The notes beneath the pieces were generated by a model, which saw only the letters and a program-made list of their open reading frames with translations, was not told the origin of the DNA and did not search any database. Shown here in pieces: positions 9,220 through 49,522 of a stretch of DNA of 64,000 nucleotides (the first letter of the stretch is position 1; each line of letters begins with the position of its first letter). Position numbers and translations under genes: made by a program. This stretch comes from Eubacteriales bacterium (GTDB lineage Bacteria > Bacillota > Clostridia > Oscillospirales > CAG-382): assembly GCA_045541355.1 (NCBI GenBank), contig JAZQIW010000071.1, positions 7,795-71,794 on the forward strand, read 5' to 3'.

Positions 9220-9249
9220 AAAAATTTACATAAAGAGAGGATGCAAACA

Positions 9250-15200: not shown

Positions 15201-15204
15201 CTAA
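9250..15204 (+). CDS. giant cell-surface protein with signal peptide, three N-terminal SLH domains, at least 11 Listeria-Bacteroides (Flg_new)-type modules and a long acidic helical C-terminal region
   Basis: Second ATG (9250) is better spaced from agagagga. Signal peptide MRTKKILTVVLAIAMLLQTFVISGFA. SLH signatures (TRAEFAAFISRAF, KRGDVFLSIARLL, TRAELAQLFHNMF). Repeated Y.V.F...G..........GY.F.GW modules. Confidence 0.85.
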   Translation: MRTKKILTVVLAIAMLLQTFVISGFAVDTSGFIDFPDDWSTEAMTAAVENGLLEGTSPNTIEPSKKLTRAEFAAFISRAFGATVEGDIKHFKDVSKDDWFYSSVAKSYQMGVMFGTGADTFSPNAYMKRGDVFLSIARLLFVSNEDTSVLDEFSDKDKIDSWSVQAIAGLVHEGYISGYEDGTLKTNNNITRAELAQLFHNMFSTYISEPGEYTSVAKNGSVVVRSEDVILKDVTVNGDLIIADGVGDGDFTLENVEVLGKIIVRGGEGTVSFVGVESKGNVIINDVNGTVNFHNYRTDVPFFENLVENTRAIFLEKVDDQEIKPSTSGSSGSGGGGSSSSTKKTLIFEIDDRGDDIEKVTLKNSPGYVITYDDVPDIDEIDETFLGWAIVNGGRVGSIVNNGFFVDRTLRSVVGSAVNKKTYSAIYEYTVIFHTDDGDVEEIKVKSYERIDEDDIPETPAGIQIGWTRNDNLEDPDENYSEITSEELADDALIDILDDFDIEKGERVLELYPAYKDYSVKFVDYEENELETYTIVGRQTLDEVPSPYLLGYDLLGWSLEKVDKDSADNASAVDFTEDELLNTNVEDIDDGDTSIVLYPVYGAKTYNITFTRNGETIGTASKKANTKLEEAEVPVAAIPGWSSDEWVWVFNGTPYTNDELLNTNVEVLFEEVDKDYTGTIEVELSATMEALTYDVTFKYVIDGNETIVATMEKIAGTVLSAPGEAEVEATSIGYDFESWQYGAKTLSPEDISADVIEKVFLEDYAPVLVANLVAKTYSVKFMDGTDEIGEDSAEAGNVLENVPDASKVGYDFENWTYNGEDVTSDDLENKNVEELFGNDTEPSLEAVYTPWTYEITFVDGADEMGTDTVVAGNKAANVPETDKTGYTFVGFTYGGEDITDALENDVVEDIFGEETAPVVEAVYTPWTYEITFVDGADEIGSDSVVAGNKVVSIPETDKMGFTFVGFEFDGEDITDALENDVVEDIFGEETAPVVEAVYEAWTYEITFVDGADEMGTDTVLAGNKAANVPETEKTGFTFVKWTFDGEDITDALENDNVEDIFGEETAPVVEAEYEAWTYEITFYDDDEVTVLDTITIEAGNVIDAMPEDPDRMGYDFAAWWYDGEVISGVTLLNYEVQEIFGEETEPEIFASYSPWLYTINFYEDASTLLDTVEIYSGNKIASVPEVDVENMTFLGWSETEGATSAEYTSDELVADNVEALFGEKTEIDFYAVLAMEGDGFLTVEHYFEQLDGSYTLEETDPDEEVLAGGTAVEAVDYVIESESHEVNLLHADNVLTGTITSGATTTLKLYYDLVEYELYFYDMGEPIHDDPIMVKHGSTFADYEDEIADTLDGYSLWYEIGYGKSYDDVYVENNVSEDGYGDELDEENNHAIHYNWYIATIDGEEFEYEEIIRNEENELETIGTYSDYAEDYVFTRNTDVYAKVKDLIVIVEMPELVEGEQLTLHIPYEDDTRFIDSIRDGVFYNAHVTDFVDRLKLEEKIMTKLEDANLVELSEDDEYEIKNVNSFMVEFYKMMGGKEAFAEWLWDIVEDEVKNELNDEWLEIYEEVKDGRGSEEALRDFFEYGNEHYDGVAPADAVAKYYASERFVEEATHDEEFAVTKDNEFIMLKVDEKISSLRYIDDVINEYAGDRIPERLVDKLPKEELKHVYEREVEEFLVSLEDAIDHAHATGEEVYVESGIVFDVNLVEDLLIPLYDYAVNMHQDVVDKTIESDRREAEIFAKIYSKNDYAPGLVAFADPEEYLTKVADRDRTDSTSGYKIRAFAEIYEEVLKPASVQTADALLWIADADASGIDFDSDIRPKFEDNKHIIISVNNHLLSMSEDYAENGFPEDLNVYYDDLVSNEYIEKALEGKLPDGIQGYIEKLVNNNIVENVFVRILNKFGVKGEALLGQMNGRVVKELDEETFDEYLDEVSLAFEESDEGVVNGKMTTDHVIGKMESKIDEENSLKGVNVIYYRTLADSAL
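11800..12499 (+). repeat. in-frame 225-bp tandem repeats (three near-identical units plus the start of a fourth)
   Basis: tggacatacgaaatcacattc occurs at 11800, 12025, 12250 and 12475. gaagaaacagcacctgttgttgaagcag occurs three times. Encodes WTYEITFVDGADE.G.D.V.AGNK... Confidence 0.9.
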
Positions 15205-15243
15205 TACCAATTAAAGGCTAAGACACAAACTAAACTTACTACT

Positions 15244-15273
15244 TTTGAGCAGATGGGAAACCGTCTGCTCAAA
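15244..15273 (+). other. intergenic stem-loop without T-tract between the two SLH genes
   Basis: tttgagcaga-(10 nt loop)-tctgctcaaa, a 10-bp perfect stem. Not followed by a U-run, so probably a partial terminator or mRNA stabiliser. Confidence 0.4.
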
Positions 15274-15294
15274 CTGTAAGAGAGGAAAAAATTA

Positions 15295-18200
15295 ATGAAT
15301 ATTAAACGAATACTTTCGGTTGTTCTTGTTTTTGCAATGATTTGTTCGCCGATTATATCCTATGCCGATGACATTGTTGCAGCACAGACACCCTCTGTAA
15401 CCGATGCTGCAGTAACAAGTGCATCAGGTGAACAAACAACAGTAAATGAGAATAATGCACTTAAAGCAAATATTGTGTTTTCTGATATTCCTGCCGATGC
15501 CCCGTACTATGATTCGGTAAAGAAGCTTGTGGAAAACGGTGTCATTAACGGATATCCCGACGGCACATTCAAGCCCGATGGCGGCGTTACAAGAGCTGAG
15601 ATGTGTAAGATGGTAAATCTTACCCTCAGATATACCTCTACCGAGGGCGCGGTCGGTTTCCCCGATGTAACTCCGAATGATTGGTACTATTCTTATGCAA
15701 TTGCTGCACAGAAGGCAGGATATATTCAGGGCTATGAGGATTTAACCTTCAGAGCCTCCAATAACATCACACGTCAGGAAGTGTGTGCAATTCTTTGCAG
15801 ACTCTTAAAGCCCATGGATCTCGGACTTGCTGTGACGGTAAGTGATACAGTTGATGATTGGGCAAAGGAATATGTAAGACTTGTTGTTCAGAATTTTCTC
15901 ATGCCTTTGGAAGAGAATAATACCTTCAGAGCAACAGAGGTTATAAAGAGACACGAGCTTGCATCTGTTCTTTCGGGTCTTGTAATCGGACCTGTTGAGA
16001 CAATAACAGCAAATGTCAGATTTTTTGTTGACGGCACTCAGTACGGCGAAACTCAGACCTTAGCTGTCGGACTTTGTGCAAAGGTACCCGCTGATCCCGT
16101 TTCAAGCGATACAACACTGCATTTTGCAGGCTGGAGAGCAGTGGGAACAGAGGATGTTGTTGATGTTGAGAGCCTTATCGTAACGGCAGACGTCGACTAT
16201 GAGGCGGTGTTTACCGAGAAAACCCATAGCGTAAAGTTCTATAACAGAGGCCGCCTTTATAAGAACCTTTCTGTTGGTCATAAGGGCATAGTAAGAGCAC
16301 CGGCAGATCCTAAGGTTGACGGTTTTATTTTCAAGGGCTGGGCTCTTGAGGAAGACGGAGCTGTTCTTGATCTCAGACGCTTCATAATCATAGAAGATGT
16401 CAAGCTCTATGCCGTTTATGAAAAGGGCACAGAGGATGATGAGGAAGAGGAAGAAGAGGAAGAGCCTGTTTACTATAATGTAAGATTTAAGGTAAACGGA
16501 AAGACTGTTCTTACACAGGAGGTTCTTGAGGGCTCCTATCCTACGGCTCCCGATGACCCTGAGGTTGAAGGCATGAAGTTTGTCGGCTGGTCCTTGAAGA
16601 ATGGCAGTACAGACGATATTATTTCTAACTTCAGACAGGTGATTGTTCTTGGAAACCTTGATATTTATGCTGTATTTGTAGAGGACGAAGAAGAGCCTGT
16701 ATTCTTTGATGTAACCTTCCATGTTGAAGGACAGCAGAGCTTTAAACAGTCGGTGCTTGAAGGTCTTTCTCCCACACAGCCTGAGGATCCCGAAGAAATA
16801 GAGGGCAAGACCTTTGTGGGTTGGTCGCTCAGGGCAGGAAACTCAACCGATATTATCACAAACTTCAAGGATATTCTCGTTTATAAGCCGTTGGATATTT
16901 ATGCTGTGTTTGTTGAAAAGGAAGAAGAGCCTGTTTATTATGAGGTAACCTTCCATGTTGACGGCAAGACGTCTAAGCAGGAGGTGCTTGAAGGTCTTTC
17001 ACCCTCGCAGCCTGCAAACCCTGTTGTTGAAGGAAAGAAGTTTGTCGGCTGGTCGCTTAGGGCAGATAATCAGGATGATTTGATTACAAGCTTTAAGGAT
17101 ATAATTGTTCTCGGTAACCTTAATATTTATGCTATCTTTGTAGTTGAGGAAGAAGAACCGGTATTCCATGATGTAACCTTCTATGTAGAAGGAAAGGTTG
17201 CTTCAAAGCAATCTGTGCTTGAAGGTTCATCACCGACAATGCCAGGTAATCCTTCACTTGACGGATACGTGTTTATGGGCTGGTCTCTTAAGAAGGGCAG
17301 TCAGTCGGATATTGTTACAAACTTCAAGAGTATTGTTGTTAAAGCACCTGTCAATATGTATGCGGTGTTTGTTGAGGAAGAAAAAGACCCTGTTTACTAT
17401 GATGTAAACTTCTATGTTGACGGTAAGGTTGTTTCTACTCAGAGCGTGCTTGAGGGTATGTCTCCGAGAAAACCCGGTAATCCTACCTATGAGGATATGA
17501 TTTTTGTCGGCTGGTCGACAATTAAGAATAATCAGTCAGGACTTATTTCAAGCTTCTCCGACATCAAGGTGAACTCTAATATGAGTATATATGCTTTGTT
17601 TAAGGAAAAGCCTGTGTATACAGTAAGCTTCTATGTTGACGGGGTTGTTACATCCACTCAGAGAGTGCTTGAAGGCTCCTATCCTCAGAAGCCTCAGACA
17701 CCTTCGCTTGACGGCATGGATTTTGTAGGCTGGTCAACTGTAAAGAATAATATAAGCGGCCTTATTTCAAGCTTTTCAAGCATTGAGGTGACGGGCGATA
17801 TGAGTATATATGCCATATTCAACGAAAAGCCTGTGTATACAGTAAGCTTCTATGTTGACGGTAAGGTTGCCTCTACCCAGAGAATAGTTGAAGGTAAGTC
17901 TCCCGAAAAGCCTCAGACACCCGCAAAAGACGGATTTAAGTTTATCGGCTGGTCTTTAAGAAGAGATAGTAAGAATGATATCATTTCCAACTTCTCGGCT
18001 ATTTCCGTAACCTCAAATATGAGCATATACGCAGTATTTGAAGAAGAGGAAAAGGAAGAGGTTTATTATACAGTAAGCTTCTATGTAGACGGAAAGGTTG
18101 ATTCTACTCAGAGAGTGCTTGAAGGATCATCACCCGTAAAGCCTGCTGACCCCAACCTTGATGGGTATGACTTTATAGGCTGGTCAACCGTGAAGAACAA

Positions 18201-18837
18201 TAATAGCGGACTCATTTCTGATTTTTCCGATGTAACGGTAAATAAGAACATGAGTATATACGCGTTGTTTGAAGAAAAGGAAGTTGAGCTTAAATACTTT
18301 AATGTCTTCTTTAGAGTAGACGGCGAGGTTTATTATAAGCAGGAGGTGCTTGAAGGCTCCTCACCCACAGCTCCCGATGATCCGGAAAAGAACGGCGAAA
18401 CCTTTACCGGCTGGTCCTTAAGAGAAAACGGAAGCATCATAGATGACTTTGATGATATTGTTGTTACAAAGCATATTGATATATATGCGGTGTTCTTCAG
18501 TAACCCCAATTCCGATGAGCTGATTGGAATGCTTGAAAGAGGTAAGACACAGCTTAATGGCTTGAGAATGTCAAATAGCAGCCATAAGAGTGCAAGGACT
18601 GTTATTGTAAGCTGTATAGGTAAGGTTCTTACTGATGCAAAAGCCGGTATTAAGATATCAAAGAGCTATGTAACAAGAGAATATAGCTCAGACGTAAATG
18701 AGGTCAAGAGAATTGTCAACGGCATGAGCCAGACAGAGCGTTCAAACTTTGTAAATATAGTTACAAGGAATGTTGATAAGGATGTTCAGGACTTCTTGAT
18801 GGATTACTTTGATATTGATATGTCATCTATCACATAA
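15295..18837 (+). CDS. cell-surface protein with signal peptide, three SLH domains, 11 tandem Listeria-Bacteroides-type modules with poly-Glu linkers and a C-terminal helical domain
   Basis: RBS agagagga. Signal peptide MNIKRILSVVLVFAMICSPIISYA. SLH signatures (TRAEMCKMVNLTL, TRQEVCAILCRLL). Repeats of the form PVYY.V.F.V.GK....Q.VLEG..P..P..P...G..FVGWS......IYA.F. Confidence 0.85.
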   Translation: MNIKRILSVVLVFAMICSPIISYADDIVAAQTPSVTDAAVTSASGEQTTVNENNALKANIVFSDIPADAPYYDSVKKLVENGVINGYPDGTFKPDGGVTRAEMCKMVNLTLRYTSTEGAVGFPDVTPNDWYYSYAIAAQKAGYIQGYEDLTFRASNNITRQEVCAILCRLLKPMDLGLAVTVSDTVDDWAKEYVRLVVQNFLMPLEENNTFRATEVIKRHELASVLSGLVIGPVETITANVRFFVDGTQYGETQTLAVGLCAKVPADPVSSDTTLHFAGWRAVGTEDVVDVESLIVTADVDYEAVFTEKTHSVKFYNRGRLYKNLSVGHKGIVRAPADPKVDGFIFKGWALEEDGAVLDLRRFIIIEDVKLYAVYEKGTEDDEEEEEEEEPVYYNVRFKVNGKTVLTQEVLEGSYPTAPDDPEVEGMKFVGWSLKNGSTDDIISNFRQVIVLGNLDIYAVFVEDEEEPVFFDVTFHVEGQQSFKQSVLEGLSPTQPEDPEEIEGKTFVGWSLRAGNSTDIITNFKDILVYKPLDIYAVFVEKEEEPVYYEVTFHVDGKTSKQEVLEGLSPSQPANPVVEGKKFVGWSLRADNQDDLITSFKDIIVLGNLNIYAIFVVEEEEPVFHDVTFYVEGKVASKQSVLEGSSPTMPGNPSLDGYVFMGWSLKKGSQSDIVTNFKSIVVKAPVNMYAVFVEEEKDPVYYDVNFYVDGKVVSTQSVLEGMSPRKPGNPTYEDMIFVGWSTIKNNQSGLISSFSDIKVNSNMSIYALFKEKPVYTVSFYVDGVVTSTQRVLEGSYPQKPQTPSLDGMDFVGWSTVKNNISGLISSFSSIEVTGDMSIYAIFNEKPVYTVSFYVDGKVASTQRIVEGKSPEKPQTPAKDGFKFIGWSLRRDSKNDIISNFSAISVTSNMSIYAVFEEEEKEEVYYTVSFYVDGKVDSTQRVLEGSSPVKPADPNLDGYDFIGWSTVKNNNSGLISDFSDVTVNKNMSIYALFEEKEVELKYFNVFFRVDGEVYYKQEVLEGSSPTAPDDPEKNGETFTGWSLRENGSIIDDFDDIVVTKHIDIYAVFFSNPNSDELIGMLERGKTQLNGLRMSNSSHKSARTVIVSCIGKVLTDAKAGIKISKSYVTREYSSDVNEVKRIVNGMSQTERSNFVNIVTRNVDKDVQDFLMDYFDIDMSSIT
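16003..18503 (+). repeat. array of 11 in-frame repeat modules of 70-78 aa (219-231 bp)
   Basis: tatacagtaagcttctatgt recurs at 17617, 17836 and 18067. The protein-level periodicity was read directly from the translation. Confidence 0.85.
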
Positions 18838-39067: not shown

Positions 39068-39649
39068 ATGATAAAAGAACAAATCAAGATAGCCGACAGG
39101 CTGAATGAAAAGTATAACTCCAAGGAATATAAGGACTTGGTTTATGATCTTGAGAGCTGCATAATTGATATGTATTATCCGGAAAGCAAGGAGAATGATA
39201 CGGGAAAAGTGCAGGCAGCACGCGGAAAGGCAAAAATTGCATCGGTTATGCTTGATGAGATAGAAGAAAAAAGAGTGTTTGAAACTGTAAGACCTATACT
39301 TGTTGAGCTTGGAATCACACCCTCCGTCAAGGGCATGAGAATAATTGAGAGATGCGTGATAGAATGTGCAAGACTTGCGGTTGAGAATAAAAGGTATAAT
39401 ATGTCAGAGATTTATGAGACGGCAGGGAAGTTTTTTTCAATAACACCGCATAACGCAGAAAGACTTGCAAGGTATGCCTGTGATAAAGTCAGACCGACAA
39501 GAAACATAGTAATTAAATATCCTTTTCTTGAAGTGCTTACACATAGAACTGTCGAAAATGTAACAGTCAAAGAGCTGTGCGATGTGCTTGTCAGGTATGT
39601 TGTAGTAAAATGTAAATTCAGACAGAGAGGCACGTCAAGGCAGGATTAA
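39068..39649 (+). CDS. Spo0A C-terminal (DNA-binding) domain-like protein lacking a receiver domain
   Basis: GITPSVKGMRIIERCVIECA ... ITPHNAERLARYACDKV resembles the Spo0A_C helix-turn-helix core. No phospho-acceptor region is present. Confidence 0.45.
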   Translation: MIKEQIKIADRLNEKYNSKEYKDLVYDLESCIIDMYYPESKENDTGKVQAARGKAKIASVMLDEIEEKRVFETVRPILVELGITPSVKGMRIIERCVIECARLAVENKRYNMSEIYETAGKFFSITPHNAERLARYACDKVRPTRNIVIKYPFLEVLTHRTVENVTVKELCDVLVRYVVVKCKFRQRGTSRQD

Positions 39650-39793: not shown

Positions 39794-40708
39794 ATGATTG
39801 AAGTATACCCGAGCTACTATAATAAATTCAAATGTATCGCCGATAGGTGCCGCCATAATTGCTGTATAGGCTGGGAAATAGATGTTGATGAAAAAACACT
39901 TTGCTTTTATAATACCCTTGACGGCGAAATGGGTGATAAAATAAGAAGAAGCATTGATGCAGAGTCTGCAAGCTTTACCCTTTGCGATGGGGAAAGATGT
40001 CCCATGCTTAATGAGAACGGACTTTGTGACATAATGCTGAAATACGGCCATGATGCCCTTTGCGATATATGCCGTAATCACCCGAGGTTTTCAAATGTTT
40101 ATTCCGGATTTTGCGAGACAGGGCTCGGACTGTGCTGTGAAGAAGCGGCAAGAATTGTACTTTCCGAAAAAGAGCCGTTTGTTGTACAATTGCCTGAGAA
40201 GGCGGTTCTTTCCGAGAGAGAAAAAGAATTTTTCGGTATACGAAATGAAATATTTGAAACTCTTCAAAATAGACAAAAGACCGTTTATCAACGCCTTTGT
40301 GACCTTGCAAAGAGCTTTGAACTTGATTTTCGCTTTGATATTGAAAAGCTCAGAAACACATACCTTTGCCTCGAAAGACTTGATGAAGCATGGACAGAAC
40401 GATTGAACGAACTAAGCTGCTTTTGCTTTGATGAAAAGGTGTTTTCGGAAGAGAAGTATCAGCTGCCCTTTGAGCAGCTTTCGGTGTACTTTGTTTTCCG
40501 ACACCTGACGGATGCCGTGTGGTACGGCGATTTCAGACAAAGAGTGGGCTTTGTTCTTGAAAGTGTGTATCTTTTGGGCGCACTTGTAGAAAAACGAAGC
40601 AGAAACGGCTCATTTGAAGAAATGGTTGATCTTGTCCGAATGTATTCAGCCGAGATTGAATATTCAACGGAAAATGTAGATTCACTTCTCGAACAAATGG
40701 TAATATAG
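39794..40708 (+). CDS. Cys-rich FliB-like (flagellin lysine-N-methylase family) protein
   Basis: N-terminal F.C....C...CC.GW.I.VD..T motif and a second cluster CP.L...GLC.I matches my memory of the FliB / YkgJ-type Zn/Fe-chelating family. Confidence 0.4.
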   Translation: MIEVYPSYYNKFKCIADRCRHNCCIGWEIDVDEKTLCFYNTLDGEMGDKIRRSIDAESASFTLCDGERCPMLNENGLCDIMLKYGHDALCDICRNHPRFSNVYSGFCETGLGLCCEEAARIVLSEKEPFVVQLPEKAVLSEREKEFFGIRNEIFETLQNRQKTVYQRLCDLAKSFELDFRFDIEKLRNTYLCLERLDEAWTERLNELSCFCFDEKVFSEEKYQLPFEQLSVYFVFRHLTDAVWYGDFRQRVGFVLESVYLLGALVEKRSRNGSFEEMVDLVRMYSAEIEYSTENVDSLLEQMVI

Positions 40709-40789
40709 AAGCATTTGGCCTTCCCGATGGGAAGGCTTTGCTGTTTGTTATATATTTTGGTAAAAAAATAAAAATATGGCGTAATGTGC

Positions 40790-40818
40790 TTGCAATTATA
40801 TCATATGTGGGTTATAAT
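40790..40818 (+). promoter_or_regulatory. sigma-A type promoter
   Basis: TTGCAA (40790-40795), 17 nt, TATAAT (40813-40818). Confidence 0.6.
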
Positions 40819-40878
40819 TAATTTGAATACGGATATCTTAATAAACTAATGAGAAGTCATAAGAAAGGAGCAGGATAA

Positions 40879-43863
40879 ATGAGAAAAGAAAACCCAAATC
40901 CATACCATCTTATCGATGATGAAATTCACTGGCCGGGTCACCATGAAGAAAGCGGATGGGATACCGATCATAGAGGTGCAGGTGCTTTTTACGGACAAAC
41001 ATATGAATACAGAACAGTAAAAAGCATTGGAAACGAGTTTCCCACCTTCAGGAGAAGAAATATCACCGAAGAAGTAAAGGGCGTTGTTACTCTCGAGGGT
41101 ACATATCGGATTGTGTCGGGAGACGGCTTTTACTTTGGCTTCTGGGGAAATAAGGGAAATGAAACAGAGGCATTTGTTTTAAGACAGAAGGATGGCTTTA
41201 TATATGCAGGTGATAAAAGGGCGTATCAATCCGATAATGCGTGGCATTACGTAAAGCTTGTTCTTGATATTGATAAGGGAGAATGTAAGCTTCACCTTGA
41301 TGGAAAATACCTTAAAACTCTTGCATTTACCGGAAAAGCAACAAGCCTTTGCCGTTTCCAGTTCGGTTATGAAGAGGGAAGCGTCGGCGAGGCTATGTTC
41401 TATGCTGACCTTGAGGTTTATAAAAACTATATTTTCCTTGACTCGCTTGTGCCCAAATATGAAGGGAATCTTCCCGAGGAATATGAAATCGAAAAAAGCG
41501 GCAAGGCTGTAATCGGCAGACGCCGTTACAGTCCCACTTCAAAGTATTCAAGCTATTATGTAAAAGCTTACAGCGGCAGCAACACAGTCATAAGCCGTGT
41601 CTTTGAAAGGGCAGAAGGAAATGTTTGTTTTGAAATGAAATATTATATTCCGAGAGCAGGAGGAAAGCTGACGGTCAGCCTTCTCAGCTCCGAATGTGAG
41701 GTTGTTTCAATTTATGATGAGCTTTGCGAAATACGCTGTAAAGACGGCGCTCTTCGCAGCCATTCGCCCAACGTCTGGCAGACTCTCAGAATTGAAGCCG
41801 ACACCAATACAAACACCGCCCTTGTGCGCCTTAACGGAAAGGTTTGCTCTACTATCAGCTTTGATAATTACGCGGAATATATAGATAAGGTGAGAATCGG
41901 CTTTGTTTGCGAAAAGGCACTTGAGCTTCAGATTTCCGACCTTAAGGCTTTTGTAATTCCTCCCTATCCCGCTGATTATGTACCCGAACCCGTAATACCA
42001 AAGAAGAAGGGCGATTACTATGTGGGTATGAATATCTGCTCACTTTGGAGAGAGGGCTCGCATTACGGCTGGGATTGTATTACACCCTTCCCCGAGAATA
42101 AGCCGCTTTTGGGATACTATGATGAGGGCATAACGGAAACTGCCGACTGGGAGCTTAAATGGATGGCAGAGCACGGCCTTGATTTTCAGCTTTACTGCTG
42201 GTATGCAAGCGAAAGTCATATGCCTATGCTAAAGACCATGCTTTCCGAAGAAATCCACGGCGGACATATGCTTGCAAAATACGGCGATAAGGTAAAGATA
42301 GCACTTCTTTGGGAGGCAGATACAGGTAAGCCCTCCTGTTTTGAGGATGTAAAGAATTACTTTGTGCCTTACTTTATAGACTACTTCTTCTCGGATCCAA
42401 GATATATGCAGATAGACGGAAAGGCAATCATGTCTATATATGCACCCGATAAGCTTGCAAGGGATCTCGGTGGACCGCAGGTTGTTAAAAGGTGTATTGA
42501 ATACCTCAGAAAAGAGGTCAAAAAGCTTGGGTATAAAGACCTTATAGTTATGTGCTGCGGTGATAATAAACCCATTTATAAGGAATGCGGAATTGAAGCT
42601 GTTCACGCGTATAATTGGGGCATTAACGGCTGGGATGTTGAGTTTACAAAGGGTAGAATTCTCGGAAATATCAGAGAAGGCTCTACCCATACCGTACCTA
42701 CCGTTTCCATGGGCTTTAACCATGCCGGCTGGACAGGCATCCGTACCCCTGTTCTCGAGCCTTGTGATATGCATACTCTTCTTGAATGGTCAAAGGATGA
42801 GATTCTTACAAAGCAGGATAAGAATAGCTGGAAATCAAAGCTCGTAATGCTCTCTACCTGGAACGAATACGGTGAGGGAACATATATGATGCCTGCGGGT
42901 GTTCACGGCTTTGGCTATCTCGATGCACTCAGAGCTTCCTTCCTTGAGGATGTGCCCCATGTTGATGTAGCTCCAAATCAGGATCAGCTTGACAGAATAT
43001 GTATTCTTCATCCTCAGGACAGAATACTTCTTGCCCCGCAGGATAATATGACCAAAGATACAACCGAATATCCCATAATTAAAAAATACGAATTTAAGAC
43101 AAAGCAAGACCTTGAAAAGTGGGAAATCCATCAGCTTACAAGCTATGAAATTCGTGACGGAAAGCTCTGCGGACATTCCGAGCAGGCAGATCCGTATATG
43201 ATTTTGAAGGACGATGATTTTCTTCCTGTTTCCACCGAAAAAATCGGAAAGATTGTTGCACATTGCCGAACCTATAAGCCTGTGGATGCTACTTGCTGTA
43301 TTCAGTGTTTCTTTAAGTTCAATAAGGAAAACTGGCATAATTGGCCTATTTCCAGACTTTCTGTGCCCGATAAGGTTGTGCCTCTCACCCTTGATCCAAA
43401 GAATGAGCATAAATTCCCTTGGCATGAAACGATATACGGCTTCCGCTTTGACCCTGTGTTCATGGAGGGCGATTTTGAGCTTGAAAGCATCGAGTTCTAT
43501 GCAGCACCCGAGCATAAGCTTCTAAAGATTGACGGTAAAATTTATGACCTTGCGCAGATGCCGTATGAGGAAGACGGAACGGTGTATATTCCGTTTGACA
43601 CCAAGAGTGAGCTTAAAAAGCTTGACAATATGTACTATGAGTGGAGCCATACACTTGAGACCCTTACTGTTTACGGCGTAAAGACAGCGGTATTTACAAA
43701 GGATAGCGATGAGGCAGTAATTGACGGGGAAACGGTAAAGCTTGTAAAGCCCTTTACCTTTGTTGACGGTATACCGCATATTCAGGCAGATGTGCTTTGT
43801 GAGCTGATTGATAAAAAGCTTAGCTTTGATGAATTTGAAGTACGCCTTGATTCTAAAAAATAA
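40879..43863 (+). CDS. leaderless multidomain protein with two N-terminal beta-sandwich (LamG-like) modules, a WbsX/GH99-like catalytic domain, a beta-sandwich and a copper-amine-oxidase-N-like C-terminal domain
   Basis: aaggagc RBS. Core motifs GYYDEG..E.ADWELKWMAEHGLDF..YCWY and STWNEYGEGTYM resemble the WbsX/GH99-like fold. C-terminal KIDGK...DGTVYIPFD...VIDGETVKL pattern. No signal peptide. Confidence 0.55.
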   Translation: MRKENPNPYHLIDDEIHWPGHHEESGWDTDHRGAGAFYGQTYEYRTVKSIGNEFPTFRRRNITEEVKGVVTLEGTYRIVSGDGFYFGFWGNKGNETEAFVLRQKDGFIYAGDKRAYQSDNAWHYVKLVLDIDKGECKLHLDGKYLKTLAFTGKATSLCRFQFGYEEGSVGEAMFYADLEVYKNYIFLDSLVPKYEGNLPEEYEIEKSGKAVIGRRRYSPTSKYSSYYVKAYSGSNTVISRVFERAEGNVCFEMKYYIPRAGGKLTVSLLSSECEVVSIYDELCEIRCKDGALRSHSPNVWQTLRIEADTNTNTALVRLNGKVCSTISFDNYAEYIDKVRIGFVCEKALELQISDLKAFVIPPYPADYVPEPVIPKKKGDYYVGMNICSLWREGSHYGWDCITPFPENKPLLGYYDEGITETADWELKWMAEHGLDFQLYCWYASESHMPMLKTMLSEEIHGGHMLAKYGDKVKIALLWEADTGKPSCFEDVKNYFVPYFIDYFFSDPRYMQIDGKAIMSIYAPDKLARDLGGPQVVKRCIEYLRKEVKKLGYKDLIVMCCGDNKPIYKECGIEAVHAYNWGINGWDVEFTKGRILGNIREGSTHTVPTVSMGFNHAGWTGIRTPVLEPCDMHTLLEWSKDEILTKQDKNSWKSKLVMLSTWNEYGEGTYMMPAGVHGFGYLDALRASFLEDVPHVDVAPNQDQLDRICILHPQDRILLAPQDNMTKDTTEYPIIKKYEFKTKQDLEKWEIHQLTSYEIRDGKLCGHSEQADPYMILKDDDFLPVSTEKIGKIVAHCRTYKPVDATCCIQCFFKFNKENWHNWPISRLSVPDKVVPLTLDPKNEHKFPWHETIYGFRFDPVFMEGDFELESIEFYAAPEHKLLKIDGKIYDLAQMPYEEDGTVYIPFDTKSELKKLDNMYYEWSHTLETLTVYGVKTAVFTKDSDEAVIDGETVKLVKPFTFVDGIPHIQADVLCELIDKKLSFDEFEVRLDSKK

Positions 43864-43908
43864 AACTTTTGCTTATACTACTCTTTTTAATGGAAAGGAA
43901 AGCTTATT

Positions 43909-46900
43909 ATGAAGCAGGATAACAGAAGAACAAAGGACGCAGTATATGTCGTAGAAGACCTGTATATGCATGAAAAAAATCATCAGATTCCTTCGGGATA
44001 TGACCTTGATGCAAGGGGCGCAAAATATCCGAATAACATCTTTTGGAATAGAGGATATACCCTTGAAACGGATGATAGCCTTAATGCAAATGCCACTCTT
44101 TCGAGACGCTTTATGCCCATAAGAGAAGGCAGGGCAGGGCTGAATTTCATTTTCAGCATAGAAAGAGGAGACGGCTTTTTTATTGAATTTCTCGATACCG
44201 AAGATAAGCCCGCGTTTACTCTTACCCAGAAAAACGATATGTTTTACTGGAATGAAACAAGGCTGGCTGTTGAGGCTTCAAAAAAGACTCATAGCATGAC
44301 AGTGGAGTTTGATATAGAAAAAAAGAAAGCGCTTGTTTGCTTTGGCGGTAAATACGTCGGAACATATTGCCTTCTTTCTGAAAATATTGCAAGATATATC
44401 GCAGGCTACCGTAATGGTGCAAAGGGTAAATGTGTTCTTAAGCAGACACACCTGCATATAAACTATATTGTAAATGACAGAAATGAAGTTCATGCTGACG
44501 GAAATCTTGCTTACGGCTGGGAGCTTGATAAGCAGCAGGGAACAGATGCATATGTCAGCTATTATTATGAGGGAGTAAAGCATTATACAAATGTTATGAC
44601 CGCAGAGGCGGGGAAAAATGCTGTCTGCCGCAGAAGCTTTGACAAGGCTGACGGAAATATCTGCTTTGAAATAAAGTATCTTACAAAGACAGAGGATAAA
44701 GAGGGCGTAAGTTTTTCACTTACCGCAGACGGAAAAGACATTGTTGCCGTTTCAGATACGGGAACAAAGCTCCTTTCACCCGATGGTGAGCTTCTTCGTA
44801 AGCATAATCCTTATGTCTGGCAAACCCTTAATGTCATGGCTGATACAAATACCCACATAGCAAGCATTTCTCTTAACGGCAAAAAGTGCGGCGAATTTGC
44901 TTTTGATAAGGAATGCTGCGGCTTTGACGGCATAAAGCTTTCATACTCGCCCGAAAACGGCGGCATCATGAAGTTCAGCGATGTGTTTGTTTATGAAATT
45001 CAGCCCGAGCCCGAGGATTATCCGAAGCCTCCCGTTCTTCCCGAAAAGGATGATAGATATTTTACCGGTATGAATATTTGCTCGCTTTGGAGACACGGTG
45101 AACACGTAGGCTGGGATGCAATAAGTGCATTCAAGGATAACCTTACATATCTCGGCTTCTATGACGAGGGCCTCAGAGAGGTTGCCGACTGGGAAATCAA
45201 GTGGATGGCAGAGCATGGTGTAGACTGTGAGTTTTATTGCTGGTATGCAAGCCAGACTAAGGCTCCGAATATGAAAACAATGCTGTCCGATGCAATTCAT
45301 AACGGACATTTCAAGGCAAAGTACGCTGATTATATGAAGCTTGCACTTATATGGGAAGCCGGTGCCGGCTGTCCTGCTTCTCCGAGTGAGGTTGAAAAGT
45401 ATTATATACCTTATTTCGAGGACTATTTCTTTACCGATCCGAGATATTTCCAAATAGACGGCGTTGCTATAATGGCAATTTATAATATCGAAAAGGTTGC
45501 ACGCGACCTTGGCGGCTATGATAAGGTAAGGGAGGTTGTAGAGCTTCTTCGTGCATCTGTCAAGAGATGCGGATACCGAGATCTTGCAATTCTTACCTGC
45601 GGAGAACCGAGTGAAAACAGAAAATTTGCAGGAGTCGATTCTGTTTATGCTTATAACTGGGGACATTACAGCTATGATCCCGATTATCAGAAGAGTAGAA
45701 TGCAAAACCAGATTGATAGCGGCATTCTCCATGTTGTGCCTACTGTTTCCGTAGGATATAACGATGTGGCATGGAGAAAGGCAAGATACCCAATGCTTGA
45801 ATGTGAGGATATGAAGAAGGTGCTTGACTGGTTTAAGAGTGATTTGCTTCCTTCCTATTCCAATCTTGATGAGCAGTGGAAGAAAAAGCTGATTATGCTC
45901 TCTACCTGGAACGAGTACGGTGAAGGTACATATATGTGCCCGAATAATCTTAATGGCTTTGGCTATCTTAATGAGGTCAGAAAGGCGCTTACTAAAAACG
46001 GTGATGCATATGAGTCGGATGTGCCCTCGGAAAAGGTGCTTGACAGACTCGGCTATATGTATCCCAAAGGACGTAGACTTTTAAGTGCTCTTCTTTATAC
46101 AAGCAAGGAATGTCCCGAAAAGTTAGTTGAGGAATATAGGTTTGACACACCCGAGGCGATGAATAAAATTGAGTGCTTAAATGACGTTGAGCTTTCCTTT
46201 GAGGACGGCAAAGTGTGCGGAAAAGCCAACGCTAATGACCCGCAGATTATTTTTGATGTCGATATTGACGCACAAAAGGTTGACGGCATAGGCATAAAAT
46301 TTGTTTCTGCTGCGGGAAATTCGAAATTGAATAGGGAAAATCCCATTACTTCTCCCGTACAGATGTTCTTCATGAGAGAAGAAGATGCAGGATTTAGCAG
46401 CAAAAGAATTTTTGAGGTTGATTTAATGGCTCCCGATAAATCACTTGTGATGCTGACAAAGGAAAACCCCGAATGGAATGGCAGAATTACCCGTTTAAGA
46501 ATCGACCCGACACCCGCGAAGGGTATCTTTGAAATCGAAAGCTTAAAGACACTCAGCTTTGATGACGGTAAGATAAGATACAAAACCTTTGTTGATAATG
46601 CTGAGTATGACTGTCATTTCAGAACAAAGATGGTGGATGGAAAACTCTTTATCAGCTTTGAACCCCTTCGCCATATCCATGTGCTTACAAGAACTTACTT
46701 TGAGTGGGATGACGAAGAGCAGACTTTGATGATTAAGTCCTACAACGATAAAACTTCATATTGGACAATGGGTAAGGATACAGCACTTGTTGACGGAAAG
46801 ACTGTTAAGCTTCCTGCAAAGCTTGAGCTTTATGATGGACTTCCTTATCTTCCGCTTGATGAATTCTGTATGGCTGCAGAATGTGAGTATAGCGTTGATG

Positions 46901-46941
46901 GCGACAGAATTGATATCAAAACCTGTATAAATAAAATATAA
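43909..46941 (+). CDS. paralog of the preceding gene with the same LamG-like / WbsX-GH99-like / CuAO-N-like architecture
   Basis: Collinear with 40879-43863 over the whole length (GMNICSLWR.G.H.GWD, WMAEHG.D, PTVS.G.N, LSTWNEYGEGTYM). No signal peptide. Confidence 0.55.
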   Translation: MKQDNRRTKDAVYVVEDLYMHEKNHQIPSGYDLDARGAKYPNNIFWNRGYTLETDDSLNANATLSRRFMPIREGRAGLNFIFSIERGDGFFIEFLDTEDKPAFTLTQKNDMFYWNETRLAVEASKKTHSMTVEFDIEKKKALVCFGGKYVGTYCLLSENIARYIAGYRNGAKGKCVLKQTHLHINYIVNDRNEVHADGNLAYGWELDKQQGTDAYVSYYYEGVKHYTNVMTAEAGKNAVCRRSFDKADGNICFEIKYLTKTEDKEGVSFSLTADGKDIVAVSDTGTKLLSPDGELLRKHNPYVWQTLNVMADTNTHIASISLNGKKCGEFAFDKECCGFDGIKLSYSPENGGIMKFSDVFVYEIQPEPEDYPKPPVLPEKDDRYFTGMNICSLWRHGEHVGWDAISAFKDNLTYLGFYDEGLREVADWEIKWMAEHGVDCEFYCWYASQTKAPNMKTMLSDAIHNGHFKAKYADYMKLALIWEAGAGCPASPSEVEKYYIPYFEDYFFTDPRYFQIDGVAIMAIYNIEKVARDLGGYDKVREVVELLRASVKRCGYRDLAILTCGEPSENRKFAGVDSVYAYNWGHYSYDPDYQKSRMQNQIDSGILHVVPTVSVGYNDVAWRKARYPMLECEDMKKVLDWFKSDLLPSYSNLDEQWKKKLIMLSTWNEYGEGTYMCPNNLNGFGYLNEVRKALTKNGDAYESDVPSEKVLDRLGYMYPKGRRLLSALLYTSKECPEKLVEEYRFDTPEAMNKIECLNDVELSFEDGKVCGKANANDPQIIFDVDIDAQKVDGIGIKFVSAAGNSKLNRENPITSPVQMFFMREEDAGFSSKRIFEVDLMAPDKSLVMLTKENPEWNGRITRLRIDPTPAKGIFEIESLKTLSFDDGKIRYKTFVDNAEYDCHFRTKMVDGKLFISFEPLRHIHVLTRTYFEWDDEEQTLMIKSYNDKTSYWTMGKDTALVDGKTVKLPAKLELYDGLPYLPLDEFCMAAECEYSVDGDRIDIKTCINKI

Positions 46942-46997: not shown

Positions 46998-47037
46998 ATC
47001 CTCCCGTGGTATATAAAAGTATCATGGGAGGATTTTT
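46998..47037 (+). terminator. rho-independent terminator
   Basis: atcctccc...gggaggat stem followed by TTTTT. Confidence 0.7.
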
Positions 47038-48202: not shown

Positions 48203-49522
48203 ATGCTTAAAATCGGATATATAGGTCTTGGTAATAGAGGAATGGGTATGCTTGCAACTGTGATTGATTCTTTTAAAAATGTAATTATTGCAGGAGTATG
48301 TGACCTGTATGAGGATAGAGTCCGGGCGGGAATTGATATGGTTCGTGAAAAATGCGGCTATGAGCCTTTGGGTACAACAGACAGCGATGAAATAATGAAG
48401 CTTGATGTTGATGCTGTGATGGTAATGGCTTCGTGGGAGGCACATATTCCTCTTGCAATTGCTTCAATGAAATCGGGAAAGCACGTTGCAATGGAGGTTG
48501 CAGGTGCTTACAGCATTGAGGATTGTTATAGACTTGTAAGAACCGGCGAAGAAACGGGAATGGGCTGTATGCTGCTTGAAAACTGCTGCTACGGAAGAAC
48601 CGAGCTTGCTGTTCTCAATATGGTGCGTGAGGGACTGTTCGGGGAAATCGTGCATTGCAGCGGCGGATATTTTCATGACCTTAGAACAGAGGTTGCAATT
48701 GGTCCCATAACACGTCATTACAGAAATAGGAATTACTATTCAAGATGCTGTGAAAACTATCCCACACATGAGCTTGGTCCCATTGCAAAGGTGCTTGATA
48801 TAAACAGAGGAAACAGAATGGTCTCGCTGGTATCTGTTTCATCTAAGGCAAGAGGTCTTAAGGAATATGCCTTAGCTGAGGGTAAAAGGCTTCATGCAAT
48901 GCTTGATAACAGCGAGGATCGCAATACAACCGTAAGCTATTACGGCAGAAATTATCCCCTCAATGATGAAATACTCGTCTCTTATGATAAGGCTAACTCC
49001 CGCGAGGTTGCTCAAGGGGATATTGTAAATACAATTATTACCTGTGCAGACGGCTCGACAATTGCTCTTACCCTTGACACAACCCTTCCGAGAGCCTATT
49101 CCAGAGGCTTTACCGTAAGAGGCACAAAGGGTATGTATATGGAAGATAATAATTCTGTGTATGTTGACGGTGATAAGGAGATGGAAAAAGCACACTTCAG
49201 CTGGCAGAAATATTGGGATAACGGTAAGGAGTACATTGAAAAATATAAGCATGGCATTTGGGAAAAGTACGGAGACGCTGCGGCAAATTCCGGACATGAC
49301 GGAATTGACTACATGGTGCTTGCGGCATTCTTTGAGGCACTTGAAAAGAAAGCTCCCTTCCCGATAGATGTGTATGATGCGGCAAGCTGGATGTGTATTA
49401 CCTGCCTTTCGGAACAGTCTATAAAGCAGGGCGGAGCACCGGTTGCAATTCCGGACTTTACGAGTGGAAAGTGGACAATGTATAAGAAAGAGGATTACGG
49501 TCTCGATTTTGCCCTTGATTAA
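48203..49522 (+). CDS. Gfo/Idh/MocA-family NAD-binding protein, GH109-like (possible NAD-dependent glycosidase)
   Basis: Rossmann KIGYIGLGNRG. Length about 440 aa. LENCCYGR.ELAVLNMVREGLFGEIVHC.GGY.HDLR resembles GH109 as I recall it. No signal peptide. Confidence 0.5.
   Translation: MLKIGYIGLGNRGMGMLATVIDSFKNVIIAGVCDLYEDRVRAGIDMVREKCGYEPLGTTDSDEIMKLDVDAVMVMASWEAHIPLAIASMKSGKHVAMEVAGAYSIEDCYRLVRTGEETGMGCMLLENCCYGRTELAVLNMVREGLFGEIVHCSGGYFHDLRTEVAIGPITRHYRNRNYYSRCCENYPTHELGPIAKVLDINRGNRMVSLVSVSSKARGLKEYALAEGKRLHAMLDNSEDRNTTVSYYGRNYPLNDEILVSYDKANSREVAQGDIVNTIITCADGSTIALTLDTTLPRAYSRGFTVRGTKGMYMEDNNSVYVDGDKEMEKAHFSWQKYWDNGKEYIEKYKHGIWEKYGDAAANSGHDGIDYMVLAAFFEALEKKAPFPIDVYDAASWMCITCLSEQSIKQGGAPVAIPDFTSGKWTMYKKEDYGLDFALD

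What the first reader, a model, noticed from the sequence alone, without database searches (positions are those of the whole stretch)
40879..46941. Tandem leaderless roughly 1000-aa paralogs with a WbsX/GH99-like core flanked by lectin-like and stalk-like domains
Seen in sequence. Two adjacent genes 45 nt apart encode collinear proteins of 994 and 1010 aa. The central domain is strongly conserved (GMNICSLWR, WMAEHG.D...YCWY, PTVS.G.N, LSTWNEYGEGTYM). The N-terminal beta-sandwich regions are more divergent. Established knowledge. G[FY]YD...ADWE..WMAEHG and WNE.GEG resemble the WbsX / GH99-like (endo-mannosidase fold) superfamily. The C-terminal 100 aa resemble copper amine oxidase N-terminal-like domains, which are normally found on exported clostridial proteins. 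Inference. Neither protein has a signal peptide, so both would be cytoplasmic, which is odd for this domain mix. The duplication with divergent putative binding modules suggests two specificities of an uncharacterised glycan-active enzyme.
Basis: partly seen in the sequence, partly recalled or inferred. Interest (0 to 1): 0.62.

Follow-up and report, generated by a model that had tools for sequence, protein, structure and literature searches.

The report
Paired cytoplasmic GH99-like glycan enzymes
Two neighbouring genes of an uncultured gut Clostridium encode large enzymes that have no export signal. Their core is a distant relative of the sugar-chain-cutting GH99 endo-mannosidases, and they belong to an uncharacterised family present in up to eleven or more copies per genome in this bacterial lineage.

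Summary
ORFs 40879-43863 (994 aa) and 43909-46941 (1010 aa) are collinear paralogs, 36% identical and 45 nt apart, in one promoter-to-terminator unit. Independent metagenome contigs span the junction, so the pair is not an assembly artefact.

- **Core.** It passes Pfam WbsX. Its AlphaFold model finds only GH99 structures as its top 36 PDB matches (TM about 0.6). A broadened profile hits BtGH99 at E 3.5e-8 and places the invariant WNEYGEG on the catalytic FNEWHEG.
- **C-terminus.** It passes Pfam Cu_amine_oxidN1.
- **Export.** No signal peptide is possible, because in-frame stops lie 1 and 7 codons upstream of the two start codons.

New findings:
- The pair is not a recent duplication. The two genes sit in different deep clades of a family with 518 loci, all listed hosts being uncultured gut Clostridia, and with at least 11 copies in some genomes.
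- One sister clade carries a signal peptide and SLH anchor, and has half the cysteine content.
- Promoters are vegetative in type. The nearest orthologs lie beside sugar-catabolic genes.

Most likely these are cytoplasmic endo-glycosidases that act on imported oligosaccharides, with different specificities. The substrate is unknown. This is an uncharacterised variant of a known kind, of moderate interest.

The parts
40717..40737 (+). Terminator-like hairpin that ends the upstream Cys-rich gene and isolates the pair from it
   Evidence: 9-pair stem, 6 GC pairs, followed by a T-rich tail
40790..40818 (+). Sigma-A-type promoter, TTGCAA-17-TATAAT, for the two-gene unit
   Evidence: The same type of promoter stands upstream of P0001 orthologs in other MAGs.
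40864..40870 (+). Ribosome-binding site AAAGGAG, 8 nt before the ATG. An in-frame TAA at 40876-40878 excludes any N-terminal extension.
40879..43863 (+). Gene 1, 994 aa (P0001), leaderless GH99-like multidomain protein
40879..41958 (+). Gene 1 residues 1-360: two tandem beta-sandwich (ConA/LamG/galectin-like) domains, N1 1-190 and N2 191-360
   Evidence: Model secondary structure is all-beta. Foldseek matches are galectin-8 tandem, CBM22 tandem, laminin LG and sialidase lectin domains. There is a weak PF06439 hit, E 0.067.
41959..43053 (+). Gene 1 residues 361-725: (beta/alpha)8 barrel, WbsX / GH99-like catalytic core
   Evidence: Pfam PF14307, E 5e-17. Core model pLDDT 88.5. GH99 structures fill the top 36 hits, TM 0.53-0.60 normalised to the query. 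Profile hit to BtGH99.
42862..42879 (+). Codons for N662-E663-Y-G-E666-G667, the putative catalytic Glu-x-x-Glu motif of gene 1
   Evidence: Invariant in 37 full-length and 43 core sequences, and in the more distant set A4. It aligns on BtGH99 N-E-W-H-E-G.
43054..43518 (+). Gene 1 residues 726-880: further beta-sandwich domain, family unknown
   Evidence: secondary structure; no Pfam hit
43519..43860 (+). Gene 1 residues 881-994: copper amine oxidase N1-like ('stalk') domain
   Evidence: Pfam PF07833, 25.7 bits against a cut-off of 24.2, residues 884-985
43892..43899 (+). RBS-like GGAAAGGA for gene 2, inside the 45-nt spacer. No promoter or terminator was called in the spacer, so the genes are probably co-transcribed.
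43909..46941 (+). Gene 2, 1010 aa (P0002), collinear paralog with the same five-domain order
45001..46104 (+). Gene 2 GH99-like core (residues 365-732)
   Evidence: Pfam PF14307, E 1.8e-14; 49% identical to the gene 1 core
45910..45927 (+). Codons for N668-E669-Y-G-E672-G673, the putative catalytic motif of gene 2
46591..46905 (+). Gene 2 copper amine oxidase N1-like domain (residues 895-999)
   Evidence: Pfam PF07833, 30.6 bits against a cut-off of 24.2
46998..47033 (+). Strong terminator-like hairpin (15 pairs) that closes the two-gene unit

Best explanation
The two genes form one vegetatively expressed, two-gene transcription unit. Each encodes a cytoplasmic, roughly 1000-aa glycan-active enzyme.

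Each protein has five domains in the same order:
1. A first ConA/LamG-like beta-sandwich.
2. A second ConA/LamG-like beta-sandwich.
3. A (beta/alpha)8 barrel distantly homologous to GH99 endo-alpha-mannosidases.
4. A third beta-sandwich.
5. A copper-amine-oxidase-N1-like domain.

The barrel keeps the GH99 Glu-x-x-Glu pair: E663/E666 in gene 1 and E669/E672 in gene 2. In GH99 these are the general base and the acid.

I infer that the proteins are endo-acting glycoside hydrolases for alpha-linked glycans, which is the range of the GH99/GH71 clan. I infer that they work inside the cell on oligosaccharides that have been imported. The SLH-anchored, signal-peptide-bearing sister clade of the same family would do the corresponding job on the cell surface.

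The two genes come from two anciently separated lineages of the family. They differ most in the accessory domains, so they probably recognise different substrates.

Shown here: the fold, the homology, the motif conservation, the lack of any export signal, the family structure and the promoter type. Inferred: hydrolase activity, substrate class, the role of the accessory domains and the different specificities.
For: **Homology and fold**
- Pfam PF14307 passes its threshold.
- The full-length model has pLDDT 91 and pTM 0.88. This implies one compact assembly rather than beads on a string.
- For the core model, the 36 best PDB matches are all GH99, at E 6e-10 to 8e-8 and TM 0.53-0.65. GH71 comes next.
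- Profile A4 hits BtGH99 at E 3.5e-8 over about 260 residues. WNEYGEG aligns on FNEWHEG, and the Y414, W441, E479, Y578, P607 and G612 equivalents are also matched.
- In BxGH99, E333 is the general base and E336 the catalytic acid (PMC6055899).
- N662, E663, E666 and G667 are invariant across all alignments.

**Cytoplasmic location**
- In-frame stops lie 1 and 7 codons upstream of the start codons, and there is no hydrophobic segment.
- About 60 family members start at the same conserved beta-strand, with a strong RBS.
- Exported relatives form essentially one clade with clear signal or lipoprotein peptides and SLH domains.
- Cysteine is 2.1% in leaderless forms against 1.0% in exported forms over the homologous span, p 6.5e-13. 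This fits the known cysteine depletion of Gram-positive secreted proteins.

**Catabolic rather than biosynthetic or sporulation role**
- Sigma-A-type promoters are conserved upstream of orthologs.
- AraC regulators are the commonest neighbours.
- The nearest orthologs lie beside GH109, GH29 fucosidase, an MFS transporter, DUF4432 and a xylose-isomerase-like TIM barrel.
- The window itself has leaderless GH109 and GH95 genes nearby.
- A leaderless member stands directly upstream of an SLH-anchored member, behind one AraC gene, in L001, L013 and L024.
Against: - No activity of any PF14307 protein is documented in the papers I could search. WbsX is named a glycosyltransferase in O-antigen loci.
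- The immediate neighbourhood of the 56 leaderless loci is mostly unconserved housekeeping. AraC genes account for only 7 of 87 neighbours, and there is no recurrent transporter. That is unusual for a catabolic glycosidase.
- Pfam's GH99 model itself does not hit, even at E 10. Identity to GH99 is 13-15%, so substrate and mechanism cannot be transferred.
- The Cu_amine_oxidN1 domain is otherwise typical of exported Firmicute proteins.
- The cysteine contrast rests on essentially one exported clade and is not corrected for phylogeny.
- No transcript or protein evidence was found.
Confidence: 0.6

Rival explanations
1. Biosynthetic role. As the Pfam name WbsX suggests, the proteins would act on the cytoplasmic face in the synthesis or remodelling of a cell-wall, S-layer or capsular glycan, as a transferase, transglycosylase or trimming enzyme. 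They would not be involved in nutrient catabolism.
For: - The Pfam family is named for an O-antigen glycosyltransferase. wbsX mutants of Burkholderia gladioli are predicted to have an altered O-antigen.
- A cytoplasmic location fits glycan assembly.
- Many loci lie among housekeeping genes without transporters.
- The host has many SLH surface proteins that could be glycosylated.
Against: - The same core occurs in a signal-peptide plus SLH clade that works outside the cell, where nucleotide sugars are absent.
- The fold and catalytic motif are those of hydrolases, GH99 and GH71.
- No Wzx/Wzy, polyprenyl-phosphate transferase or nucleotide-sugar genes were seen beside the family genes.
- AraC regulators and catabolic glycosidases are the recurrent neighbours.
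- Eleven or more paralogs per genome is unusual for a biosynthetic step.
Confidence: 0.15
2. Non-classical export. The leaderless proteins would reach the cell surface or the medium without a Sec signal, for example by holin-dependent or lysis-dependent release. There, the lectin-like and stalk-like domains would do what they normally do on exported proteins.
For: - The domain repertoire of beta-sandwich binding modules and Cu_amine_oxidN1 is typical of exported clostridial proteins.
- Exported paralogs keep exactly the same module order.
Against: - The lineage plainly uses ordinary signal peptides and SLH anchors when it exports this enzyme type.
- Cysteine content is twice as high in the leaderless forms. 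C387 and C440 are invariant in both groups.
- No holin or dedicated secretion gene is adjacent.
- A pTM of 0.88 indicates that the accessory domains pack into one body rather than forming an extended stalk.
Confidence: 0.12
3. Sporulation-linked. Mother-cell-made, leaderless proteins would be deposited on, or would modify, the spore surface glycan. The pair lies 2.3 kb from spoIIE and next to a Spo0A_C-like gene.
For: - Spore coat and exosporium proteins need no signal peptide.
- The neighbours are spoIIE and a Spo0A_C-like gene.
Against: - A terminator separates the pair from the upstream genes, and the promoter is TTGCAA-17-TATAAT, a sigma-A type.
- Orthologs in other MAGs carry the same promoter type but have no sporulation neighbours.
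Confidence: 0.03
4. Assembly duplication artefact.
For: None found.
Against: - The copies are 36% identical at the protein level.
- Contigs from three runs in two independent studies span the junction.
- Each gene has its own orthologs, at 75% and 70% identity, in other MAGs.
Confidence: 0

Closest known systems
GH99 endo-alpha-1,2-mannosidases/mannanases (BtGH99 4acy/4acz/4ad0, BxGH99, human MANEA)
   Same: - Both have a (beta/alpha)8 barrel. GH99 structures are the best structural matches, at TM about 0.6.
- The profile-to-sequence hit has E 3.5e-8.
- The N-E-x-x-E-G-T motif with both catalytic glutamates is conserved, as are several other aligned barrel residues.
   Different: - Identity is only 13-15%, and Pfam's GH99 model does not match.
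- GH99 enzymes are single-domain proteins of about 350-380 aa that are secreted, periplasmic or in the Golgi. These proteins are about 1000 aa, have five domains and are cytoplasmic.
- The substrate is unknown.
Pfam PF14307 Glyco_tran_WbsX (NCBI name 'glycoside hydrolase family 99-like domain-containing protein')
   Same: - Both proteins exceed the gathering score.
- NCBI already gives family members this name.
   Different: - The match is partial. The best stretch covers only profile positions 252-350, in two stretches.
- Classical WbsX proteins are small cytoplasmic proteins, or domains of O-antigen glycosyltransferases in Gram-negatives.
- Here the domain is embedded between lectin-like and stalk-like modules in Clostridia.
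GH71 alpha-1,3-glucanases (Agn1p 8yfh/9m6l)
   Same: - They are the second-best structural class, at TM 0.45-0.49.
- A weak Pfam PF03659 hit falls on the same motif region.
   Different: The hit is far below Pfam's threshold (16 bits against 34). GH71 enzymes are fungal and secreted.
SLH-anchored paralogs of the same family (for example P0122 in L001, 1551 aa)
   Same: They have the same order of lectin-like domains, core, beta domain and Cu_amine_oxidN1 domain. The core is 37-50% identical.
   Different: They add a signal or lipoprotein peptide, three SLH repeats and extra CBM_4_9 modules. Cysteine content is half as high, and they form a separate clade.
Intracellular counterparts of extracellular endo-glycanases in Firmicutes, for example the intracellular GH10 xylanase IXT6 of Geobacillus stearothermophilus (recalled from memory, not checked here)
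   Same: The logic is the same: an exported endo-enzyme paired with a leaderless paralog that finishes imported oligosaccharides.
   Different: The enzyme family is different. Those systems sit in clear utilisation loci with ABC transporters, which is not seen here.

Membership tests
Pfam PF14307 (WbsX / GH99-like) | Whole-protein HMM score above the gathering cut-off of 25.1 bits | tested here: met
   57.4 bits (P0001) and 48.8 bits (P0002). Core alone scores 62.7 and 54.4 bits. Coverage of the profile is partial.
CAZy GH99 | Sequence membership: match to the family model Pfam PF16317 Glyco_hydro_99 | tested here: not met
   No PF16317 hit for either core, even at E <= 10. No phmmer or hmmsearch hit of the family-only profiles to GH99 chains. 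Only the broadened profile A4 reaches BtGH99, at E 3.5e-8.
CAZy GH99 | (beta/alpha)8 barrel fold like BtGH99, BxGH99 and MANEA | tested here: met
   The top 36 Foldseek PDB hits are all GH99, E 6e-10 to 8e-8, TM 0.53-0.65, on a model with pLDDT 88.5.
CAZy GH99 | Catalytic Glu-x-x-Glu pair (BxGH99 E333 base, E336 acid) | tested here: met
   HMM alignment puts WNEYGEG on BtGH99 FNEWHEG. E663 and E666 are invariant. Roles are from PMC6055899. The Bt/Bx residue equivalence is from memory.
CAZy GH99 | Endo-alpha-1,2-mannosidase or mannanase activity with retention of configuration | not testable with these tools
   Needs an enzyme assay.
Pfam PF07833 Cu_amine_oxidN1 ('stalk domain') | HMM score above the gathering cut-off of 24.2 bits | tested here: met
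   25.7 bits (residues 884-985) and 30.6 bits (residues 895-999). Both are just above threshold.
Sec-exported / cell-wall-anchored clostridial glycosidases | N-terminal signal or lipoprotein peptide | tested here: not met
   In-frame stops lie 1 and 7 codons upstream. N-terminal hydropathy is -0.5 and 0.3, against 1.9-3.4 in exported paralogs.
Sec-exported / cell-wall-anchored clostridial glycosidases | SLH or another wall-anchoring module | tested here: not met
   No SLH, LysM, CW_binding or sortase motif in the Pfam scan. SLH is present only in the long paralogs.
ConA-like lectin / LamG superfamily (N-terminal domains) | Beta-sandwich fold matching lectin or CBM structures | tested here: inconclusive
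   The model is all-beta for residues 1-360. Foldseek hits include galectin-8, CBM22 tandem, laminin LG45 and sialidase lectin domains, but TM is low because the whole 994-aa model was the query. PF06439 hits only at E 0.067.

The most novel reading that the evidence does not exclude
The leaderless roughly 1000-aa proteins would be the founding members of a new glycoside hydrolase family, outside CAZy GH99. The family would use the GH99-type Glu-x-x-Glu machinery on a substrate class not yet assigned to any enzyme. Its expansion to at least 11 copies per genome, together with a surface-anchored sister clade, would mark the main nutrient niche of a widespread but uncultured lineage of gut Clostridia in humans, ruminants and chickens.
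Probability: 0.3. Interest if true: 0.6.

Novelty: new variant of a known kind. Interest (0 to 1): 0.38.

Why it matters
PF14307 is a large family, but I found no biochemical characterisation of it in the searchable literature. This subfamily is strongly expanded in uncultured gut Clostridia, including MAGs labelled Oscillospiraceae and Eubacteriales from human, ruminant and chicken gut samples.

Knowing its substrate would assign a function to hundreds of 'GH99-like' and 'stalk domain' annotations. It could also reveal which glycan these organisms specialise on.

The family has a clean split into a cytoplasmic clade and an SLH-anchored clade with the same module order. That makes it a natural system for studying how one multidomain glycosidase is adapted to two compartments. 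The finding gives concrete targets for testing: two proteins and two glutamates each.

Tried and rejected
- **Single-sequence and family-only profile searches of PDB sequences** found nothing relevant. Only the profile broadened with stand-alone 367-416-aa relatives reached GH99.
- **Foldseek with the whole 994-aa model** gave only low-TM beta-sandwich matches, with Cry protoxins and sialidases at the top. That result says nothing about the core, so a separate core model was needed.
- **Literature searches** for WbsX with 'glycoside hydrolase', for PF14307, for 'GH99-like' and for Cu_amine_oxidN1 gave no characterisation of this family.
- **A search for a conserved gene neighbourhood** found none beyond scattered AraC regulators and catabolic genes near the closest orthologs.
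- **The sporulation hypothesis** was rejected on promoter type and lack of synteny.
- **The assembly artefact hypothesis** was rejected.
- **The 3.1-kb 'skip' joints in read laying** rest on 20-42-nt sides at conserved core motifs. I read them as cross-matches of other paralogs in metagenomes, not as deletions.
- **No RNA runs** hold the gene.
An unverified note reports a third long copy and a short one.


Full report
**1. The observation**

The + strand carries two long ORFs, 40879-43863 (994 aa, P0001) and 43909-46941 (1010 aa, P0002), separated by 45 nt. BLASTP aligns them end to end at 36% identity and 53% positives.

Identity is uneven along the protein:
- first beta-sandwich: 23%
- second beta-sandwich: 31%
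- central core: 49%
- next beta domain: 22%
- C-terminal domain: 28%

The pair is bracketed by a terminator-like hairpin at 40717-40737 and a 15-pair hairpin at 46998-47033. A TTGCAA-17-TATAAT promoter lies at 40790-40818. AAAGGAG lies 8 nt before the first ATG, and GGAAAGGA 9 nt before the second. It therefore looks like one two-gene transcription unit.

Single contigs from three public metagenome runs in two studies cross the junction at about 99% identity. With only 36% identity between the copies, an assembly duplication is excluded.

**2. Domain identities**

Pfam gives PF14307 (WbsX) at 57.4 and 48.8 bits against a cut-off of 25.1. It gives PF07833 (Cu_amine_oxidN1) at 25.7 and 30.6 bits against a cut-off of 24.2. 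There is a sub-threshold GH71 hit on the WNEYGEG region. NCBIfam has no model.

An AlphaFold model built on 37 family sequences has pLDDT 91 and pTM 0.88. It shows these segments:
- two all-beta domains (1-190 and 191-360)
- a (beta/alpha)8 barrel (about 361-725)
- another beta-sandwich (726-880)
- an alpha/beta C-terminal domain (881-994)

The high pTM for a 994-residue chain means the relative positions of the domains are predicted with confidence. This is a compact body, not a string of modules.

Foldseek with the whole model returned only low-TM lectin, CBM and LamG-type matches. I therefore modelled the core alone on 43 sequences (pLDDT 88.5). Its 36 best PDB matches are all GH99: BtGH99, BxGH99 and human MANEA, at E 6e-10 to 8e-8, TM 0.53-0.65 and 13-15% identity. 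GH71 Agn1p follows.

**3. Sequence-level link to GH99 and the catalytic residues**

Family-only profiles did not reach any PDB sequence. A search with the core alone is restricted by length to 200-640-aa proteins. It found stand-alone relatives of 367-416 aa.

A profile that includes them (A4) hits BtGH99 (4acy/4acz/4ad0) at E 3.5e-8 over about 260 residues. In that alignment the family's S-T-W-N-E-Y-G-E-G-T lies on BtGH99 S-F-N-E-W-H-E-G-T. Counting along the printed chain gives E329 and E332.

In BxGH99 the equivalent E333 is the general base that activates O2, and E336 is the catalytic acid (PMC6055899). The Bt/Bx equivalence is from my memory.

N662, E663, E666 and G667 are invariant in every alignment made here, including the 25%-identical outlier P0159. 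Other aligned, conserved positions are Y414, W441, E479, Y578, P607 and G612. In P0002 the pair is E669/E672.

Pfam's own GH99 model does not match. The proteins are therefore homologous to GH99 but not members of it.

**4. Leaderless, and probably truly cytoplasmic**

An in-frame stop lies one codon before the ATG of gene 1 and seven codons before that of gene 2. The N-termini are hydrophilic, and no 19-residue window exceeds hydropathy 1.03.

Among 90 family ORFs in 79 fetched loci, about 60 are 985-1015 aa. These start within a few residues of the same conserved strand (x-Y-L-I-D-D). About 25 are 1150-1790 aa and begin with an obvious signal or lipoprotein peptide, usually followed by SLH repeats.

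On a FastTree of 85 members the long forms make up essentially one clade. The few apparent exceptions are ORF-calling extensions or contig-end truncations.

Over the homologous span the leaderless proteins have 2.1% cysteine and the exported ones 1.0% (Mann-Whitney p 6.5e-13). This is the direction expected from the known cysteine depletion of Gram-positive secreted proteins. However, the exported forms are one clade, so the test is not phylogenetically independent.

**5. The family and the meaning of 'tandem'**

The large protein database holds at least 332 clusters of this length and architecture. A few are named 'glycoside hydrolase family 99-like domain-containing protein' or 'stalk domain-containing protein' by NCBI.

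Among 185,579 species genomes, 518 loci encode a relative. All listed hosts are uncultured Clostridia, Eubacteriales or Oscillospiraceae MAGs from human, ruminant, deer and chicken gut. Up to 11 copies per MAG occur among the 80 best loci alone.

P0001 and P0002 fall on opposite sides of the deepest split of the tree. Their orthologs (75% and 70% identical) are not adjacent to each other in other MAGs. The pair is thus a juxtaposition of two old lineages, not a recent duplication. Tandem triplets of other members exist in L044 and L048.

**6. Context**

Immediate neighbours of 56 leaderless loci are mostly unrelated housekeeping genes. The commonest family is AraC, at 7 of 87.

The nearest orthologs do sit beside catabolic genes:
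- L003: a 78%-identical GH109-like gene and an MFS transporter
- L004: AraC
- L042 and L038: GH29 fucosidase and DUF4432
- L006: a xylose-isomerase-like TIM barrel

In L001, L013 and L024 a leaderless member is followed directly by an SLH-anchored member, behind a divergent AraC gene.

In the window, the pair is followed by an MBL hydrolase, a GH109-like protein, three AraC regulators, TIM-barrel isomerases and Gfo/Idh/MocA oxidoreductases. A GH95 gene lies upstream.

Upstream of P0001 orthologs there are sigma-A-type promoters and strong ribosome-binding sites. This argues against sporulation-specific expression, despite the nearby spoIIE gene.

**7. Explanation**

Best supported (about 0.6): cytoplasmic, endo-acting glycoside hydrolases with GH99-type catalytic machinery. 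They would work on imported oligosaccharides and be the intracellular counterparts of the SLH-anchored clade. The two genes would have different specificities.

Rivals:
- a biosynthetic or remodelling role, as the WbsX name suggests (0.15)
- non-classical export (0.12)
- a sporulation link (0.03)
- an assembly artefact (0)

The substrate is not predictable from these data. The GH99/GH71 relationship points to alpha-linked mannans or glucans. If the GH99 neighbouring-group mechanism is retained, a manno-configured 2-OH would be required.

**8. Novelty**

The proteins belong to a known, automatically annotated but biochemically uncharacterised Pfam family. Compared with characterised GH99 enzymes, three things are different: the five-domain architecture, the cytoplasmic location and the lineage-specific expansion. 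I rate this a new variant of a known kind, with moderate interest (0.38).

Noticed in passing
L001:8942-17657 (also L013, L024): An AraC regulator is divergently upstream of a leaderless 995-aa family member. That member is followed after 13 nt by a 1551-aa member with signal peptide, SLH repeats and CBM_4_9. This looks like an inside/outside enzyme pair under one regulator.
   Followed up: partly
L044:1648-10982 and L048:47-9321: Three leaderless family members stand in tandem in two other MAGs. The copies belong to different subclades.
   Followed up: partly
P0142, P0145, P0146, P0149: Stand-alone core-only relatives of about 400 aa have hydrophobic N-termini that look like signal peptides. 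Others (P0127) have none. The minimal form of the domain therefore also exists in both compartments.
   Followed up: no
window 48203-49522 and L003:6363-7697: The GH109-like NAD-dependent glycosidase downstream of the pair has a 78%-identical ortholog directly upstream of the P0001 ortholog in another MAG. The Cys-rich 304-aa protein (39794-40708) also recurs near family members in L042 and L009.
   Followed up: partly
window 1123-5286: A 1387-aa protein combines Listeria-Bacteroides repeats, a chitobiase C-terminal domain, a cohesin and a dockerin. This hints at cellulosome-like assembly in this organism.
   Followed up: no
window 9241-18837: Two giant SLH-anchored proteins (1987 and 1180 aa) carry Flg_new repeats. 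The organism has an S-layer-type wall to which SLH-bearing paralogs of the family could attach.
   Followed up: no
window 41804-46039 (read laying joints): Short metagenome contigs appear to 'skip' about 3.1 kb between equivalent core motifs of gene 1 and gene 2, with sides of 20-42 nt. These are most likely k-mer cross-matches from other paralogs or strains, not real deletions.
   Followed up: partly
window 39068-39649: A 193-aa protein has only a Spo0A C-terminal-like domain (E 5.7e-5, below Pfam's cut-off). It lies between spoIIE and the pair.
   Followed up: no
L021:42-4319: One member of a leaderless clade has a 433-aa N-terminal extension with no signal peptide. It may be a fusion with another domain or an ORF-calling artefact at the contig edge.
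   Followed up: no
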